DNA of 13,285 bases from a virus. Taxonomy: Duplodnaviria > Heunggongvirae > Uroviricota > Caudoviricetes. The stretch's first letter is position 1; each line of letters begins with the position of its first letter. Where the stretch lies: IMG/VR virus record IMGVR_UViG_2609459822_000007; one strand, given 5' to 3'. Below, one piece after another: positions 9,001-12,000 of this stretch. Made by a program: the position numbers.

Positions 9001-12000
9001 TTTCGCCATTTTTGAACCTGTCATATTGCCCCCAGCATGGTGGTGACCATCGCCATCAATGGACCAGCCAGATCCGGGTCCACTCGAAACATCGACACAA
9101 TGCCTTCACTCATCTCCTTCAGTTTCTGGTGGCGTGGTGCGTTGAGAATGACCGCCTGCTTTGCCTCACTGAGTTCCTTTTCCATTTCAGCCAGCCGAGC
9201 CATGAAGCTATCCTGCTCAACCAGGTGGCCGCGATATTCCAGCGGTAGTACCGCCAGAATTGCCGGGGTCAGTTCACGCACGTTATTTCGGTATTTTTCA
9301 GAATCGAATTTGTTATCGAGGAAGCGGAACAGCTTCTGGCGTGCACGACTGACATCATCAGGAAAATCGATGGTGCCGCCGCCCTGTGCTCGATACTCAT
9401 TCACAATGAGTGCGGCAACTACATCCTGATTATCTTCAGCAGACCAAGCGCGGACGGCATCACGGATTTTTTCGTGGCCTGGCACCTGTTTTGTTTGAGA
9501 ACGATTTATCACCGCAGTCGGGCTAAATCCGCTAGTCTGTTGGTATGTAAGTGGTTGCATAATTGACTCCTTTAGTTTGAATTGACTGTTAAGTTGATTG
9601 CTTATTGTTAAAGAGCGTGAAATGGAAATTTAAGCTGCGTTCTTTTCGGTGTGTGGAAACAACTTCGGAAGATCCGGGCGAATCTGGTATGCCTTCACTA
9701 CTCCACCAGTAGCCGTAACAATGCTGCCGACATGTTCAGGGGATACCTTTGCTTTGTTGTGAAGCCACTTATAGACGGCCTGCTGTGAAACTTCGCAAGC
9801 AGCGCCCAGTTTCTTTTGTGAACCAACGATATTGATCGCTGTTTTGATAGCTGGGTTCATAACAACCTCCGTGGTTAATTTGAATCAAGATTAAAACCAT
9901 GGTTGTTTTTAGTCAACAACCATTTTCGTTTGATGGAATAAAACCTTGGTTGTACATTTGGACTATGAAAACAACACTCTCAGAAAGACTTAAAGAAGCC
10001 AGATTAGCGCGAGGCCTTACACAAAAGGCGCTTGGGGATTTGGTCGGGGTTAGCCAAGCTGCTATTCAGAAAATCGAAACAGGGAAAGCTAATCAAACAA
10101 CTAAAATCGTGGAGATCGCGAACGCTTTGGGTGTGCGCGCAGAATGGTTATCTTCTGGCGTTGGAAATATGTCAGACAGTACAGTGCAACCAATACAATC
10201 AACTGTCAGCCATTCCAAATACTTCAAGATTGACGTTCTTGATATAGAAGTCAGTGCTGGGCCGGGAGTCATCAACCGTGAGTTTGTAGAAGTTCTACGC
10301 TCGGTTGAGTACTCGTTTGACGATGCTCGTCATATGTTCGATGGTAGGAAGGCGGAAAATATCCGCATCATTAACGTGCGTGGTGACAGCATGTCAGGAA
10401 CGATCGAACCAGGTGATCTGCTGTTCGTTGATATCACAGTTAAATCTTTCGACGGTGATGGTATCTATGCGTTTCTGTACGACGACACAGCCCATGTAAA
10501 GCGCCTGCAAATGATGAAGGATAAGCTGCTGGTCATCTCTGATAACAAAAGCTACTCACCGTGGGACCCGATCGAGAAAGACGAGATGAACCGGGTGTTC
10601 ATCTTCGGTAAGGTTATTGGGAGCATGCCGCAGACATATAGAAAGCATGGGTAGTACCAATTAAAAATTATCAACTGGGCATTGTGCTCATTCAGTAAAG
10701 AACTAATTCCTATCTTTGCTCTAGGTAGTAATATTAAGCCACCGCAATAATATCTTTACCTAACGGCGTAAGAATCCCGGTCACCGTGCCGGGTTTTCTT
10801 TTGCCCTCCCCTCATCACACACACCGTTAAAAAAACCACCATAACCTCGCTTCAGTTATCGCTATGCGATTCAAGTCACAAAATAAATCCATCCTAAATA
10901 CAACCAGTTATATCTAAAACAACCAATAAAACAACTTTTGTTGTTGACGGTAAAACAACTATAGTTTTAAATAAGTTCATCGCAACAACACAACGATACG
11001 GCAACCACCTGATTCACCGTTGCGATGACCGCTTAGATCCGCAGTTTGAATTTCAGCAGGCTTCGGGGAGTGCGAGGGGTGAAACGGACGCGTGAACGTC
11101 GGTGTGACCAGCTGAAATCAACTCAACATTTCATACCTTAGTCGCTTCAACGAGGCGACTTAGTTATGACAACCGGCGGCCATCCACCGCCTGAATACGC
11201 GCAGAAGTCTCTATATGTTCAGCAGCCCAGCTTACGGGCAGGAGTTTTTATGGTTCATCAACATTACGGAACGCAGACCGTTAATCGAGGTGCGGTCATG
11301 CCAGGAATGCTGGTCAAACACAAAGATGGTACCTGGACTGCATCAGCTAATTTACGCGGACGGCTTTATCTGCATCGCGGCATCGAGCGCACTTATACCC
11401 GTGATTTGCTCGTGGAAGTTTTTCTCGACGGACGCGGTAACGGCCTGAATCGCTAATCCCCTTTCCTGTTTTCCTAATCAGCCTGGCATTTCGCGGGCGA
11501 TATTTTCACAGCCATTTTCAGGAGTTCAGCCATGAACGCTTATTACATTCAGGATCGTCTTGAGGCTCAGAGCTGGGCGCGTCACTACCAGCAGATCGCC
11601 CGTGAAGAGAAAGAGGCAGAACTGGCAGACGACATGGAAAAAGGCCTGCCCCAGCACCTGTTTGAATCGCTATGCATCGATCATTTGCAACGCCACGGGG
11701 CCAGCAAAAAAGCCATTACCCGTGCGTTTGATGACGATGTTGGGTTTCAGGAGCGCATGGCAGAACACATCCGGTACATGGTTGAAACCATTGCTCACCA
11801 CCAGGTTGATATTGATTCAGAGGTATAAAACGGATGAGTACAGCACTCGCAACGCTGGCAGGGAAGCTGGCTGAACGTGTCGGCATGGATTCTGTCGACC
11901 CACAGGAACTGATCACCACTCTTCGCCAGACGGCATTTAAAGGTGATGCCAGCGATGCGCAGTTCATCGCATTGCTGATCGTCGCCAACCAGTACGGCCT

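What the first reader, a model, noticed from the sequence alone, without database searches (positions are those of the whole stretch)
9021..10654. Mosaic immunity region: LexA-like CI, YdaS-type Cro, 186-type CII-like, with shared operator half-sites
Replication (O, P, ren) and recombination (gam, bet, exo) genes are near-lambda, but the immunity cassette is of different ancestry. The motif AACAAC(C)/GGTTGTT recurs in both the cro-cI intergenic region and the putative OL, which defines a candidate operator half-site for this repressor. The CI protein carries an S24 peptidase domain and an Ala-Gly site, predicting RecA-dependent induction.
Basis: partly seen in the sequence, partly recalled or inferred. 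Interest (0 to 1): 0.4.

Follow-up and report, generated by a model that had tools for sequence, protein, structure and literature searches.

The report
Lambdoid prophage immunity switch, 434-like operators
This is an ordinary but uncharacterised lysis-lysogeny switch of a very common E. coli lambda-like prophage: the repeated AACAAC motif marks five real repressor-binding sites, and the only unexpected lead is a likely second target of the switch's CII-like protein near the late-gene activator Q.

Summary
AACAAC/GTTGTT occurs 8 times in the 185 nt of the two control regions, against about 0.1 expected. The copies resolve into 16-bp dyads (A/T)A(C/A)AAC-N4-GTTGT(T/A). OR1, OR2 and OR3 lie 23 and 24 bp apart between cro and cI. 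OL1 and OL2 lie 24 bp apart at PL.

A matrix trained only on related phages from Klebsiella, Providencia and Salmonella ranks these five sites top in the window.

CI starts at 9965, not 9899. It combines a 434-repressor-like DNA-binding domain with an S24 domain carrying Ala98-Gly99, Ser142 and Lys179. That S24 domain is 100% identical to the one in the inducible prophage bv_4C10. Cro is YdaS-type.

The "186-type CII" label is wrong. The protein is a phi80-type CII of the YdaT family, 66% identical to phi80 CII.

The cassette occurs in about 19% of complete E. coli genomes and in isolated phages, so it is a new member of a known kind.

One side lead goes further. A perfect, conserved YdaT-box lies in a promoter at 2943-2971. 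That promoter launches a covarying three-hairpin leader upstream of the nin/Q genes.

The parts
9021..9560 (-). cII-like gene, phi80-type CII of the YdaT family, 179 aa. Its stop overlaps the start of O.
   Evidence: Pfam YdaT_toxin 8e-30 and phrog_163 3e-67. It is 66% identical to phi80 CII and 68% to mEp237 CII. The match to PDB 8bt1 (CP-933P YdaT) has E = 1.4e-3, with the recognition-helix motif QKLFRF (Arg79) conserved.
9606..9617 (-). Perfect boxA (CGCTCTTTAACA) on the PR transcript, 13 nt after the cro stop. No convincing boxB follows and no N gene was found.
   Evidence: It is the only exact match in the window and is present in 78 of 79 related IMG/VR loci. The Providencia relative has boxA plus a hairpin at the same place.
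9630..9860 (-). cro, YdaS-type, all-helical Cro, 76 aa.
   Evidence: Pfam YdaS_toxin 4e-17, with P22_Cro as a weak match. The closest solved structure is Xfaso1 Cro, 3bd1. Identity to the Cro of relatives that share the operators is 68-87%.
9861..9876 (.). Possible auxiliary operator-like dyad (AACAAC CTCC GTGGTT) overlapping the cro Shine-Dalgarno (GGAGG, 9866-9870). Not established.
   Evidence: Matrix score 11.7, which is within the chance range. Similar dyads sit at the same place in two of three relatives, scoring 13.6 and 11.6.
9888..9916 (-). PR: -35 TTGACT (9916-9911), 17-nt spacer, -10 TAATCT (9893-9888). The start is predicted near 9881.
   Evidence: Read from the sequence. The -35 and a TA...T -10 are at the same positions in the three relatives. 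PR is homologous to PL.
9892..9907 (.). OR1: TAAAAC CATG GTTGTT. It fills the PR spacer and touches the -10.
   Evidence: Matrix score 21.2, the top hit in the window. Conserved in relatives. Only the spacer base 9898 varies commonly among 80 loci.
9915..9930 (.). OR2: AACAAC CATT TTCGTT, with a weak right half. It overlaps the PR -35 by 2 bp, abuts the PRM -35, and is centred at -42.5 from the cI start.
   Evidence: Score 14.3. The weak half is conserved in two of three relatives.
9930..9958 (+). PRM: -35 TTGATG (9930-9935), 17-nt spacer, -10 TACATT (9953-9958). The start is predicted at the A of the cI ATG, giving a leaderless mRNA.
   Evidence: Read from the sequence. TTGNNN and TA...T hexamers lie 6-7 nt before the ATG, with no Shine-Dalgarno, in all four phages. 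Leaderless cI-analogue mRNAs are documented for lambda and CP-933P (PMC8630535).
9939..9954 (.). OR3: TAAAAC CTTG GTTGTA. It covers the PRM spacer and the edge of the -10.
   Evidence: Score 20.2. Conserved in relatives.
9965..10654 (+). cI repressor, 229 aa: N-terminal 434-type HTH domain (about residues 1-66), a linker holding Ala98-Gly99, and an S24 domain with Ser142 and Lys179.
   Evidence: Pfam HTH_3 5e-13 and Peptidase_S24 1e-18. 434 repressor DBD E = 4.5e-9, 24 of 64 identical. Catalytic residues invariant in alignment A2. Residues 85-229 are 100% identical to the CI of the inducible prophage bv_4C10.
10776..10793 (+). Intrinsic terminator ending the cI transcript.
   Evidence: GC-rich hairpin followed by a T run.
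10930..10945 (.). OL2: AACAAC TTTT GTTGTT, a perfect dyad overlapping the PL -35.
   Evidence: Score 18.3. An OL pair with 24-bp spacing is present in all three relatives, and those sites were not used for training.
10944..10973 (+). PL: -35 TTGACG (10944-10949), then -10 TTAAAT (10967-10972) or TAAATA (10968-10973).
   Evidence: Read from the sequence. It is colinear with PR: GTTGTTGAC..AAAACAAC.AT.GTTTTAA.
10954..10969 (.). OL1: AACAAC TATA GTTTTA, in the PL spacer and -10.
   Evidence: Score 20.3.
11250..11456 (+). kil (Rac KilR-type cell-division inhibitor), the first gene of the PL operon. It sits where lambda has N.
   Evidence: phrog_294 1.6e-38 and PGAP annotation.
2943..2971 (-). Outside the finding. 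Promoter of the nin/Q operon: -35 TTGATT (2971-2966) and -10 CATAAT (2948-2943). A perfect YdaT-box, TTGATT-N6-AATCAA (2954-2971), overlies it and is the probable second target of the CII-like protein.
   Evidence: It is the only exact match in the window, against 0.01 expected. Phage 82 record X92588 annotates the same -35 and -10 as putative. In loci picked by the leader alone, 68 of 79 distinct upstream sequences hold the box with at most 1 mismatch, at a fixed offset and with a variable spacer. The motif was bound experimentally by CP-933P and Rac YdaT (PMC9986795, PMC11879457).
2787..2939 (-). Outside the finding. Conserved structured leader RNA: P1 2911-2939 (loop CCUGAACAAC), P2 2881-2907 (GGGA loop, holds the ylcH start codon), P3 2832-2851 followed by a U-rich tract at 2818-2831. 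The small ORF ylcH is translationally coupled to ybcN.
   Evidence: Alignments A8 and A9 and RNAalifold, where 6 of 7 P1 pairs show compensatory changes. Per-sequence folds show at least 7 different P2 stems and covarying P3. No Rfam family matches.

Best explanation
This is the lysis-lysogeny switch of an intact DLP12/phage-82-like lambdoid prophage. It works like the lambda and 434 switches but is built from different parts.

In a lysogen, CI dimers bind 16-bp dyads of the form (A/T)A(C/A)AAC-N4-GTTGT(T/A), using an N-terminal helix-turn-helix domain of the 434-repressor type. Occupancy of OR1 and OR2 blocks PR, and with it cro, cII, O and P. Occupancy of OL1 and OL2 blocks PL, and with it kil, gam, bet and exo.

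OR2 has a conserved weak half-site and probably needs cooperative help from OR1. It is centred at -42.5 from a leaderless cI transcript, which is the position for activating PRM. OR3 lies over the PRM core, where it could give negative autoregulation and serve as Cro's shut-off site.

DNA damage activates RecA, which stimulates CI self-cleavage at Ala98-Gly99 by the Ser142/Lys179 dyad. The DNA-binding domain is thereby separated from the dimerisation domain and the prophage is induced. The YdaS-type Cro then binds the same operators.

The phi80-type CII (YdaT family), made from PR, favours lysogeny by acting at TTGATT-N6-AATCAA-type boxes.

Shown here:
- the genes and their domains;
- the number, symmetry, spacing and cross-genus conservation of the sites;
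- the catalytic residues.

Inferred, not shown:
- binding of CI and Cro to these sites;
- the order in which sites are occupied, and cooperativity;
- activation of PRM;
- RecA-dependent cleavage;
- the targets of CII.
For: Genes and domains:
- Searches give the gene layout and family matches.

Motif enrichment:
- Searches show the hexamer clustering. One search shows 4 perfect matches to the degenerate dyad against 0.04 expected, though that consensus was derived from these same sites.

Independent test of the operators:
- The matrix from the Klebsiella, Providencia and Salmonella relatives picks OR1-3 and OL1-2 as the top five sites of the window.
- It also finds untrained OL pairs with 24-bp spacing in all three relatives.
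- In those relatives the flanks diverge while the half-sites, the 23/24-bp spacing, the promoter hexamers and the leaderless cI start are kept.

Specificity travels with the DNA-binding domain and Cro:
- D2 and 4C10 CI have a 100% identical C-terminal domain but only a 54% identical N-terminal domain and a 48% identical Cro, and their operators are different.
- UPF_BP1 has a 27% identical C-terminal domain but a 61% identical N-terminal domain and a 68% identical Cro, and its operators are the same.
- HK639 (56% identical N-terminal domain) has ATAAC-type dyads with the same geometry.

Link to 434:
- The closest solved structure to the CI N-domain is the 434 repressor DNA-binding domain (E = 4.5e-9).
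- 434 operators are 14 bp, with conserved outer 4+4 bases and 4 uncontacted central bases (PMC1636474). From my own knowledge the 434 consensus is ACAA-N6-TTGT, which is the core of AACAAC-N4-GTTGTT.

Induction:
- Ala-Gly, Ser and Lys are present.
- CI residues 85-229 are identical to those of bv_4C10, a prophage induced by RecA-activating bacteriocins (bioRxiv 10.64898/2026.05.26.727859).

Viability and spread:
- PhiR34_1 is 98.5% identical over 9021-11165, and five other isolated phages carry the same CI N-terminal domain.
- At least 80% of 9600-11000 is present in 1049 of 5426 complete E. coli genomes.

Role of YdaS and YdaT:
- YdaS and YdaT act as Cro and CII analogues in CP-933P and Rac (PMC8630535, PMC9986795, PMC11879457).
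Against: - No binding, transcription or cleavage experiment exists for this CI, Cro or CII. Everything about occupancy is inferred.
- Only two strong OL sites were found, so OL may be bipartite, unlike lambda and 434.
- OR2 scores 14.3, which is below the best shuffle score of 17.2 when taken on its own. Its support comes from position and conservation.
- The recognition helix (SQAAIQK) differs from that of 434 (TQQSIEQ) at most contact positions, so the structural analogy does not fix the base contacts.
- No good YdaT-box lies at the cro/cII junction, where PRE is expected. The best candidates have 2-3 mismatches, so how CII turns on cI is unresolved.
- The 80 IMG/VR loci that share this CI are nearly identical, so they add little independent evidence.
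Confidence: 0.85

Rival explanations
1. The motif recurrence is a by-product of two homologous, A+T-rich early promoters (PR and PL arose by duplication). It does not reflect repressor operators, and the real operators are other sequences.
For: PR and PL share a colinear stretch of about 40 nt, GTTGTTGAC..AAAACAAC.AT.GTTTTAA. That alone would duplicate four hexamers. The regions are A+T-rich.
Against: Shuffles that keep the local composition give a mean of 0.97 and a maximum of 7 in 20,000, against 8 observed. OR3 lies outside the PR/PL homology and is still a perfect dyad. The sites are two-fold symmetric with variable 4-bp centres. They are kept in three other genera while the promoter flanks diverge. 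They also change together with the CI DNA-binding domain and Cro.
Confidence: 0.04
2. The module is a decayed, non-functional remnant of a cryptic prophage like DLP12 in K-12. The sites would then be fossils, and CI would no longer control a lytic programme or respond to SOS.
For: The window resembles DLP12, which is defective in K-12. N is absent and boxA stands without a boxB. Some leader-bearing IMG/VR loci lack cII.
Against: All genes of the region are intact. Isolated plaque-forming phages carry the same region at 95-99% identity. The identical CI C-terminal domain works in an inducible prophage. Common variants among 80 loci avoid the half-sites.
Confidence: 0.06
3. The dyads are mainly Cro (YdaS-type) sites or sites of another factor. 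CI would act differently, for example through only a subset of the sites or by long-range OL-OR looping to other sequences.
For: Cro co-varies with the operators as tightly as the CI N-domain does. Sequence alone cannot tell which protein binds which site.
Against: The CI N-domain belongs to the 434 repressor family, whose operators have this geometry and the ACAA core (PMC1636474). In every characterised lambdoid switch, CI and Cro share operators. OR2 at -42.5 from the leaderless cI start fits CI autoactivation.
Confidence: 0.05

Closest known systems
Phage 434 repressor/Cro with its 14-bp operators (ACAA-N6-TTGT; PDB 2or1, 1rpe, 1per)
   Same: The CI N-terminal domain is 37.5% identical to 434 R1-69 (E = 4.5e-9), and the first Gln of the recognition helix is kept. 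The operators are dyads with conserved outer bases and a variable 4-bp centre, and AACAAC-N4-GTTGTT contains ACAA-N6-TTGT. There are three sites at OR.
   Different: The half-site consensus is (A/T)A(C/A)AAC: the C of ACAA is replaceable by A, and an extra conserved C follows. Most recognition-helix contact residues differ (QQSIEQ versus QAAIQK). Cro belongs to a different family (YdaS/P22-Cro-like), not 434-Cro-like. OL shows only two strong sites.
Lambda OR/OL-PR/PRM/PL switch
   Same: cI and cro are divergent. The tripartite OR has 23/24-bp spacing. OR2 abuts the PRM -35. The cI mRNA is leaderless. CI is S24 self-cleaving. cII lies downstream of cro, and the gam, bet, exo, P and ren flanks are 90-99.6% identical to lambda.
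   Different: There is no sequence relationship between the regulators (CI 23%, Cro 25%). Operators are 16 bp rather than 17 bp. N, cIII, rexAB and oop are absent. CII belongs to another family.
HK022 CI and Bievrevirus (4C10, 4A7, D2) CI
   Same: The C-terminal oligomerisation and cleavage domain is 50% identical to HK022 CI and 100% identical to D2 and 4C10 CI. The Ala-Gly, Ser and Lys residues are the same.
   Different: The N-terminal DNA-binding domain is only 33% identical to HK022 and 54% to D2, the operators are different (ATAATAGCAAT-type in D2), and Cro is different. These phages are therefore predicted to be heteroimmune.
phi80 CII / YdaT family (Rac YdaT; CP-933P YdaT, PDB 8bt1)
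   Same: The Pfam YdaT domain is present. Identity to phi80 CII is 66%. The gene sits in the same place, between cro and O. The recognition-helix motif QK(I/L)FR(W/F) with the key Arg is conserved.
   Different: Similarity to the two biochemically studied members is weak (E = 1e-3 to 8bt1). No perfect YdaT-box lies at the cro/cII junction here. The only perfect box is 6 kb downstream at the nin promoter.
Coliphage 186 CII (Pfam Phage_CP76)
   Same: It has a similar size (169 versus 179 aa), an N-terminal HTH and a lysogeny-establishment role, so it is a functional analogue.
   Different: No detectable homology: blastp E = 1.3, a different Pfam family and a different PHROG, and an hhalign probability of 0.15%.

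Membership tests
Lambda-type CI/Cro bistable immunity switch | Divergent repressor and cro genes flanking a control region of about 100 bp that holds face-to-face promoters | tested here: met
   cro is at 9630-9860 (-) and cI at 9965-10654 (+), with 104 nt between them. PR and PRM hexamers were identified and are conserved in three relatives.
Lambda-type CI/Cro bistable immunity switch | Multiple dyad-symmetric operators at OR and a second cluster at the early-left promoter | tested here: met
   There are three sites at OR with 23/24-bp spacing and two at OL with 24-bp spacing. They are the top five matrix hits and exceed or match the null maxima.
Lambda-type CI/Cro bistable immunity switch | CI and Cro bind the operators with opposite site preference, giving bistability | not testable with these tools
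   This needs EMSA or footprinting and reporter assays.
LexA/S24 self-cleaving repressors | Peptidase S24 domain with a Ser-Lys catalytic dyad | tested here: met
   Pfam PF00717 at 1.2e-18.
LexA/S24 self-cleaving repressors | Ala-Gly (or Cys-Gly) scissile bond in the linker upstream of the catalytic Ser | tested here: met
   Ala98-Gly99 lies in VSAGPG, 43 residues before Ser142. HK022 CI aligns with the equivalent ASAGPG.
LexA/S24 self-cleaving repressors | RecA-stimulated autocleavage | not testable with these tools
   Support is indirect. The identical domain (residues 85-229) is present in prophage bv_4C10, which is induced by RecA-activating bacteriocins.
434-repressor-type HTH domain and operator | Significant sequence similarity to the 434 R1-69 domain | tested here: met
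   phmmer E = 4.5e-9 over residues 5-68, with 24 of 64 identical.
434-repressor-type HTH domain and operator | A 14-bp operator, ACAA-N6-TTGT, with conserved outer bases and an uncontacted 4-bp centre | tested here: inconclusive
   The geometry is met and the central 4 bp vary. ACAA is present in AACAAC halves but is AAAA in TAAAAC halves, so the specificity is related but not identical. Cross-binding was not tested.
YdaS-type Cro (PF15943) | Profile match above the curated cut-off, with the gene directly downstream of PR | tested here: met
   62.2 bits against a cut-off of 30. The gene position is as expected.
YdaT / phi80-type CII (PF06254) | Profile match above the cut-off, gene between cro and O, conserved recognition-helix Arg | tested here: met
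   103.5 bits against a cut-off of 21. Identity to phi80 CII is 66%. Arg79 in FRF aligns with CP-933P Arg60 in FRW and is nearly invariant in alignment A3.
YdaT / phi80-type CII (PF06254) | A cognate TTGATT-N6-AATCAA box at the cro/cII junction that activates a reverse, PRE-like promoter | tested here: not met
   The best sites near the junction have 3 mismatches (9594-9611) and 2 mismatches (9871-9888). The one perfect box is at 2954-2971. Family membership rests on the protein, and the PRE mechanism remains open.
186-type CII (PF06892 Phage_CP76) | Sequence or profile similarity to 186 CII | tested here: not met
   blastp E = 1.3. The Pfam and PHROG families are different. hhalign probability is 0.15%.
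N/nut antitermination system | N gene after PL, and boxA plus boxB on both early transcripts | tested here: not met
   The first PL gene is kil. A perfect boxA lies only on the PR transcript. No stable boxB follows it and no boxA follows PL.
HK022-type put antiterminator RNA | Sequence similarity to putL or putR downstream of PL or PR | tested here: not met
   No alignment to HK022 or HK639. The fold z-score is -1.5. The relative UPF_BP1 does carry HK022-like put sites.

The most novel reading that the evidence does not exclude
The phi80-type CII (YdaT) of this cassette may have a second, conserved target outside the immunity region. This is the perfect TTGATT-N6-AATCAA box over the -35 and spacer of a promoter at 2943-2971.

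That promoter launches a covarying three-hairpin leader that has no Rfam family. P1 carries an invariant CCUGAACAAC loop. P2 holds the start codon of the small ORF ylcH. P3 is followed by a U-tract. The leader lies upstream of ybcN-ninE-ybcO-rusA-ylcG-Q.

In these N-less lambdoid phages, CII would then gate expression of the late-gene activator Q directly. That would be a protein-DNA counterpart of lambda's CII-dependent PaQ antisense control. The leader could be an undescribed attenuator or antiterminator RNA.
Probability: 0.35. Interest if true: 0.6.

Novelty: new member of a known kind. Interest (0 to 1): 0.3.

Why it matters
This immunity type is present in about one in five complete E. 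coli genomes, yet public records annotate it only as 'S24 family peptidase / transcriptional regulator / toxin YdaT domain protein'.

Defining its operators has three practical uses:
- It predicts which prophages are homoimmune, and so predicts superinfection immunity among gut E. coli phages.
- It corrects the 'toxin' label on the YdaT-family gene.
- It supplies an orthogonal repressor-operator pair related to 434.

The case also shows domain-level mosaicism inside cI. The DNA-binding domain, the operators and Cro move as one unit, independently of the cleavage domain and of cII.

The side lead would add a new layer of lysis-lysogeny control if confirmed.

Tried and rejected
1. 186-type CII. 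Rejected by blastp, Pfam, PHROGs and hhalign.

2. N protein or nut sites. The ORF after PL is Kil, and only a lone boxA was found.

3. put-like RNA after PL. There is no similarity to HK022 or HK639 and the fold is not significant. Rfam gave nothing.

4. Divergent relatives through the search for homologous proteins with the CI N-domain. The search returned only fragments of 122 aa or less. The IMG/VR scan returned 80 loci with 99-100% identical N-domains, useless for covariation. tblastn against phages gave the useful relatives instead.

5. CI relatives at 67-81% overall identity (D2, S149, Fraca) as an operator test. They share only the C-terminal domain and have other operators.

6. A third OL site. 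Nothing convincing lies 23-24 bp upstream of OL2, only isolated half-sites at 10899, 10918 and 10984.

7. The CII site or PRE in the 5' end of cII. An inverted repeat GATTTA-N15-TAAATC (9504-9530) and conserved blocks in alignment A6 are explained by coding constraint. The repeat finder found only AATTGACT twice, at 9561 and 9580.

8. The minus-strand promoter hit at 10985-10958. It was dismissed as the mirror image of the palindromic OL1.

9. The literature searches found no description of these operators or of the nin leader. King et al. 2011 on HK639 could not be retrieved.
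Full report
**What the window is.** The window is part of an intact DLP12/phage-82-like lambdoid prophage. On the minus strand lie Q, rusA, ybcO, ninE, ybcN and ylcH. Next comes a moron block (ybcM, ybcL, ybcK, emrE), followed by ren, P, O, a cII-like gene and cro. On the plus strand lie cI, kil, gam, bet and exo. Phage PhiR34_1 is 98.5% identical over 9021-11165. Several other isolated coliphages carry the same region. At least 80% of 9600-11000 is present in 1049 of 5426 complete E. coli genomes.

**Checking the observation.** AACAAC/GTTGTT occurs 18 times in the window against 8.9 expected. 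Eight copies lie in 185 nt, namely 9861-9964 and 10915-10995. Whole-window composition predicts 0.12 there. Shuffles that keep the local composition give a mean of 0.97 and never reach 8 in 20,000 trials. The clustering is therefore real.

The hexamers pair into 16-bp inverted repeats with a variable 4-bp centre:
- OR1: 9892-9907, TAAAAC CATG GTTGTT
- OR2: 9915-9930, AACAAC CATT TTCGTT
- OR3: 9939-9954, TAAAAC CTTG GTTGTA
- OL2: 10930-10945, AACAAC TTTT GTTGTT
- OL1: 10954-10969, AACAAC TATA GTTTTA

Centre-to-centre spacings are 23 and 24 bp at OR and 24 bp at OL.

**An independent test.** tblastn with the CI N-terminal domain found relatives in three other genera: Klebsiella phage ST101-KPC2phi6.1 (74% identical), Providencia phage PSTCR7lys (65%) and Salmonella phage UPF_BP1 (61%). 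Each has three dyads of the same type, at the same spacing, between cro and cI. Each also keeps the PR and PRM hexamers in place and has no Shine-Dalgarno before cI. The surrounding bases differ.

A weight matrix built only from those nine foreign OR sites ranks OR1, OL1, OR3, OL2 and OR2 as the five best sites of the 13.3-kb window, with scores from 21.2 down to 14.3. The best score in 300 shuffles was 17.2 and the mean maximum was 11.3. The matrix also finds an untrained OL pair with 24-bp spacing downstream of cI in all three relatives. Among 80 IMG/VR loci with this CI, the common polymorphisms fall in spacers and between sites, not in half-sites.

**Promoter anatomy (read from the sequence, conserved in the relatives).**
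- PR (minus strand): TTGACT at 9916-9911, 17-nt spacer, TAATCT at 9893-9888. OR1 fills the spacer and OR2 touches the -35.
- PRM (plus strand): TTGATG at 9930-9935, 17-nt spacer, TACATT at 9953-9958. The -10 ends 6 nt before the cI ATG at 9965, and there is no ribosome-binding site. The cI mRNA is therefore predicted to be leaderless, as for lambda cI and CP-933P paaR2 (PMC8630535).
- OR2 is centred at -42.5 from the predicted cI start. OR3 covers the PRM core.
- PL (plus strand): TTGACG at 10944-10949, followed by TTAAAT or TAAATA. PL is colinear with PR.
- A terminator at 10776-10793 ends the cI transcript.
PGAP and PhiR47_2 use 9965.

**The proteins.** CI has HTH_3 and Peptidase_S24 domains. 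Its N-domain is closest to the 434 repressor DNA-binding domain (E = 4.5e-9, 24 of 64 identical). 434 operators are 14 bp, with conserved outer bases and four uncontacted central base pairs (PMC1636474). From my own knowledge their consensus is ACAA-N6-TTGT, which is the core of AACAAC-N4-GTTGTT.

Ala98-Gly99, Ser142 and Lys179 are present. CI residues 85-229 are 100% identical to the CI of Bievrevirus bv_4C10. That prophage is induced by RecA-activating bacteriocins (bioRxiv 10.64898/2026.05.26.727859). RecA-dependent induction is thus well supported, but indirectly.

Cro matches Pfam YdaS (4e-17) and resembles all-helical Cro proteins.

The cII-like protein is YdaT family (8e-30). It is 66% identical to phi80 CII and 53-68% identical to the CII proteins of mEp237, HK225 and HK639. 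It shows no relationship to 186 CII. YdaS and YdaT act as Cro and CII analogues in CP-933P and Rac (PMC8630535, PMC9986795, PMC11879457).

**Mosaicism.**
- Lambda-like DNA ends at about 8471, inside O, and resumes at 11450.
- P is 97% identical to lambda P, Ren 90%, Gam 97%, Bet 99.6% and Exo 98%. O is only 67% identical.
- Within cI the joint is intragenic. D2 and 4C10 share a 100% identical C-terminal domain but only a 54% identical N-domain, a 48% identical Cro and different operators. UPF_BP1 shares the N-domain (61%), Cro (68%) and the operators, but only 27% of the C-terminal domain.
- HK639 (N-domain 56%) has ATAAC-type dyads with the same geometry.
- Homology with D2 ends exactly at the cII start codon. 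The relatives that share the operators carry small lambda/P22-type cII genes.
- The specificity unit is therefore the CI DNA-binding domain, the operators and Cro together. The cleavage domain and cII are exchanged independently.

**Mechanism and verdict on the finding.** This is a lambda/434-style switch, described in the best explanation. The kind of system is well known and the DNA is common. I found no description of these operators in the searched literature, so I file it as a new member of a known kind.

**Things that do not fit lambda.**
- There is no N. The first PL gene is a Rac-type kil.
- A perfect boxA, CGCTCTTTAACA, follows cro but has no credible boxB. The Providencia relative has boxA plus a hairpin at that place, so ours looks like a version with the hairpin deleted.
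- No put-like RNA was found, although UPF_BP1 has HK022-like putL and putR.
- The cI-to-OL interval varies from 275 nt here to more than 1 kb elsewhere. In PhiR47_2 it holds gevT/gevA.

**A lead outside the finding.** I searched the window for the experimentally defined YdaT operator, TTGATT-N6-AATCAA. CP-933P YdaT binds it, and Rac YdaT binds both its own ATGATT-N6-AATCAA box and the CP-933P box (PMC9986795, PMC11879457). The window holds one perfect copy, at 2954-2971, against 0.01 expected. None occurs, even with one mismatch, in the 17 comparison loci scanned.

The box covers the -35 (TTGATT) and the spacer of a minus-strand promoter whose -10 is CATAAT at 2948-2943. Phage 82 record X92588 marks the same hexamers as a putative promoter upstream of orf33 (ylcH)-orf151 (ybcN)-ninE-orf96-rus-orf45-Q.

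The element TTGATW-N6-WATCAA-N5-CATAAT is conserved in phage 82, D2, HK639, CobraSix, HK225 and phi80. For all of these except phage 82, which is only a partial record, a phi80-type cII was found.

To avoid circularity I then chose IMG/VR loci by the downstream leader alone. Of 79 distinct upstream sequences, 49 have a perfect box and 19 have one mismatch. The box sits at a fixed offset in 72 of 79. The half-site columns are 85-100% conserved and the spacer is variable. Shuffled sequences give 4-6 mismatches in 75 of 79 (range 2-6). The half that lies in the promoter spacer has no role in sigma-70 recognition, so its conservation points to a bound protein.

A YdaT-family ORF lies 2.7-6.4 kb upstream in 23 of 34 such loci that have at least 7 kb of upstream sequence. 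This co-occurrence was not corrected for shared ancestry. The key Arg of the YdaT recognition helix is conserved in our protein: QKLFRF, compared with QKIFRW in CP-933P.

**The leader RNA.** The transcript begins with three hairpins.
- P1 (2911-2939) has a variable stem and an almost invariant CCUGAACAAC loop. Six of its seven pairs show compensatory changes.
- P2 (2881-2907) has at least seven different stems, with GGGA or AGAGAAA loops, and contains the start codon of the 33-codon ORF ylcH.
- P3 (2832-2851) covaries and is followed by a U-rich tract.

The ylcH stop overlaps the ybcN start. No Rfam family matches. Whether CII represses or activates this promoter is unknown. Whether the leader is an attenuator, an antiterminator or a leader-peptide device is also unknown.

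**What remains open in the immunity region.** The promoter through which CII switches on cI was not located. The nearest box-like sequences are 9594-9611 (3 mismatches) and 9871-9888 (2 mismatches, at the PR start). In the first, TTGATT could serve as the -35 of a plus-strand promoter with TGAAAT at 9618-9623. The dyad over the cro ribosome-binding site (9861-9876) may be a fourth site or may be chance.

Noticed in passing
window 2787-2971 (- strand): A perfect YdaT-box, TTGATT-N6-AATCAA (2954-2971), overlies the -35 and spacer of a promoter (-10 CATAAT, 2948-2943). The promoter launches a conserved three-hairpin leader (P1 2911-2939, P2 2881-2907, P3 2832-2851 plus a U-tract) containing the small ORF ylcH, upstream of ybcN...rusA...Q. 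The element is widespread in IMG/VR, shows covariation, has no Rfam family, and co-occurs with phi80-type cII.
   Followed up: partly
window 9606-9617 (- strand): A perfect rrn/nut-type boxA (CGCTCTTTAACA) lies 13 nt after the cro stop, in a phage with no N gene and no clear boxB. The Providencia relative (L089) has boxA plus a hairpin at the same spot. This copy could be a relic or a boxA-only Nus-factor site.
   Followed up: partly
window 10655-10929; L002 3703-5131; L003 3682-5098: The interval between the cI stop and OL2 is an insertion hotspot. It is 275 nt here, but about 770, 1030-1180 or more than 1300 nt in related loci. In PhiR47_2 it holds the gevT/gevA toxin-antitoxin pair, and D2 has two genes of similar size there.
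   Followed up: partly
window 9965-10654 compared with L003, L098 and L090: There is an intragenic recombination joint in cI near codon 85. The C-terminal domain is 100% identical to D2 and 4C10 CI while the DNA-binding domain is 54% identical. The reverse pattern is seen in UPF_BP1.
   Followed up: yes
L090 about 3365-3440 and 2050-2140: Salmonella phage UPF_BP1, which shares this operator type, carries near-identical copies of HK022 putL after PL and a putR-like sequence after cro. The same immunity specificity is therefore combined with RNA-based antitermination in that phage.
   Followed up: no
window 9587-9599 (-) and 11116-11128 (+); hairpin 11131-11169: The PR and PL transcripts share a 13-nt element, AAUCAACU(U/C)AACA, matching at 12 of 13 positions. 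On the PL side it is followed by a strong 9-bp hairpin just upstream of kil. The function is unknown.
   Followed up: no
window 9021-9024; L093 3059-3118: The cII stop overlaps the O start (ATGA), so there is no room for an oop/M3-type antisense RNA. phi80 and HK639 have such an RNA between cII and the replication genes.
   Followed up: no
window 3004-6994: A moron block (ybcM AraC-like regulator, ybcL, ybcK serine recombinase, emrE efflux pump) sits between ren and the nin promoter, as in DLP12. It is absent from D2, HK639 and phi80 at this place.
   Followed up: no
window 8005-9024: O is a hybrid. Its C-terminal part is lambda-like (93.8% DNA identity up to 8471). Its N-terminal, origin-binding part and the iteron region are foreign, which implies a non-lambda ori specificity paired with lambda P.
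   Followed up: no
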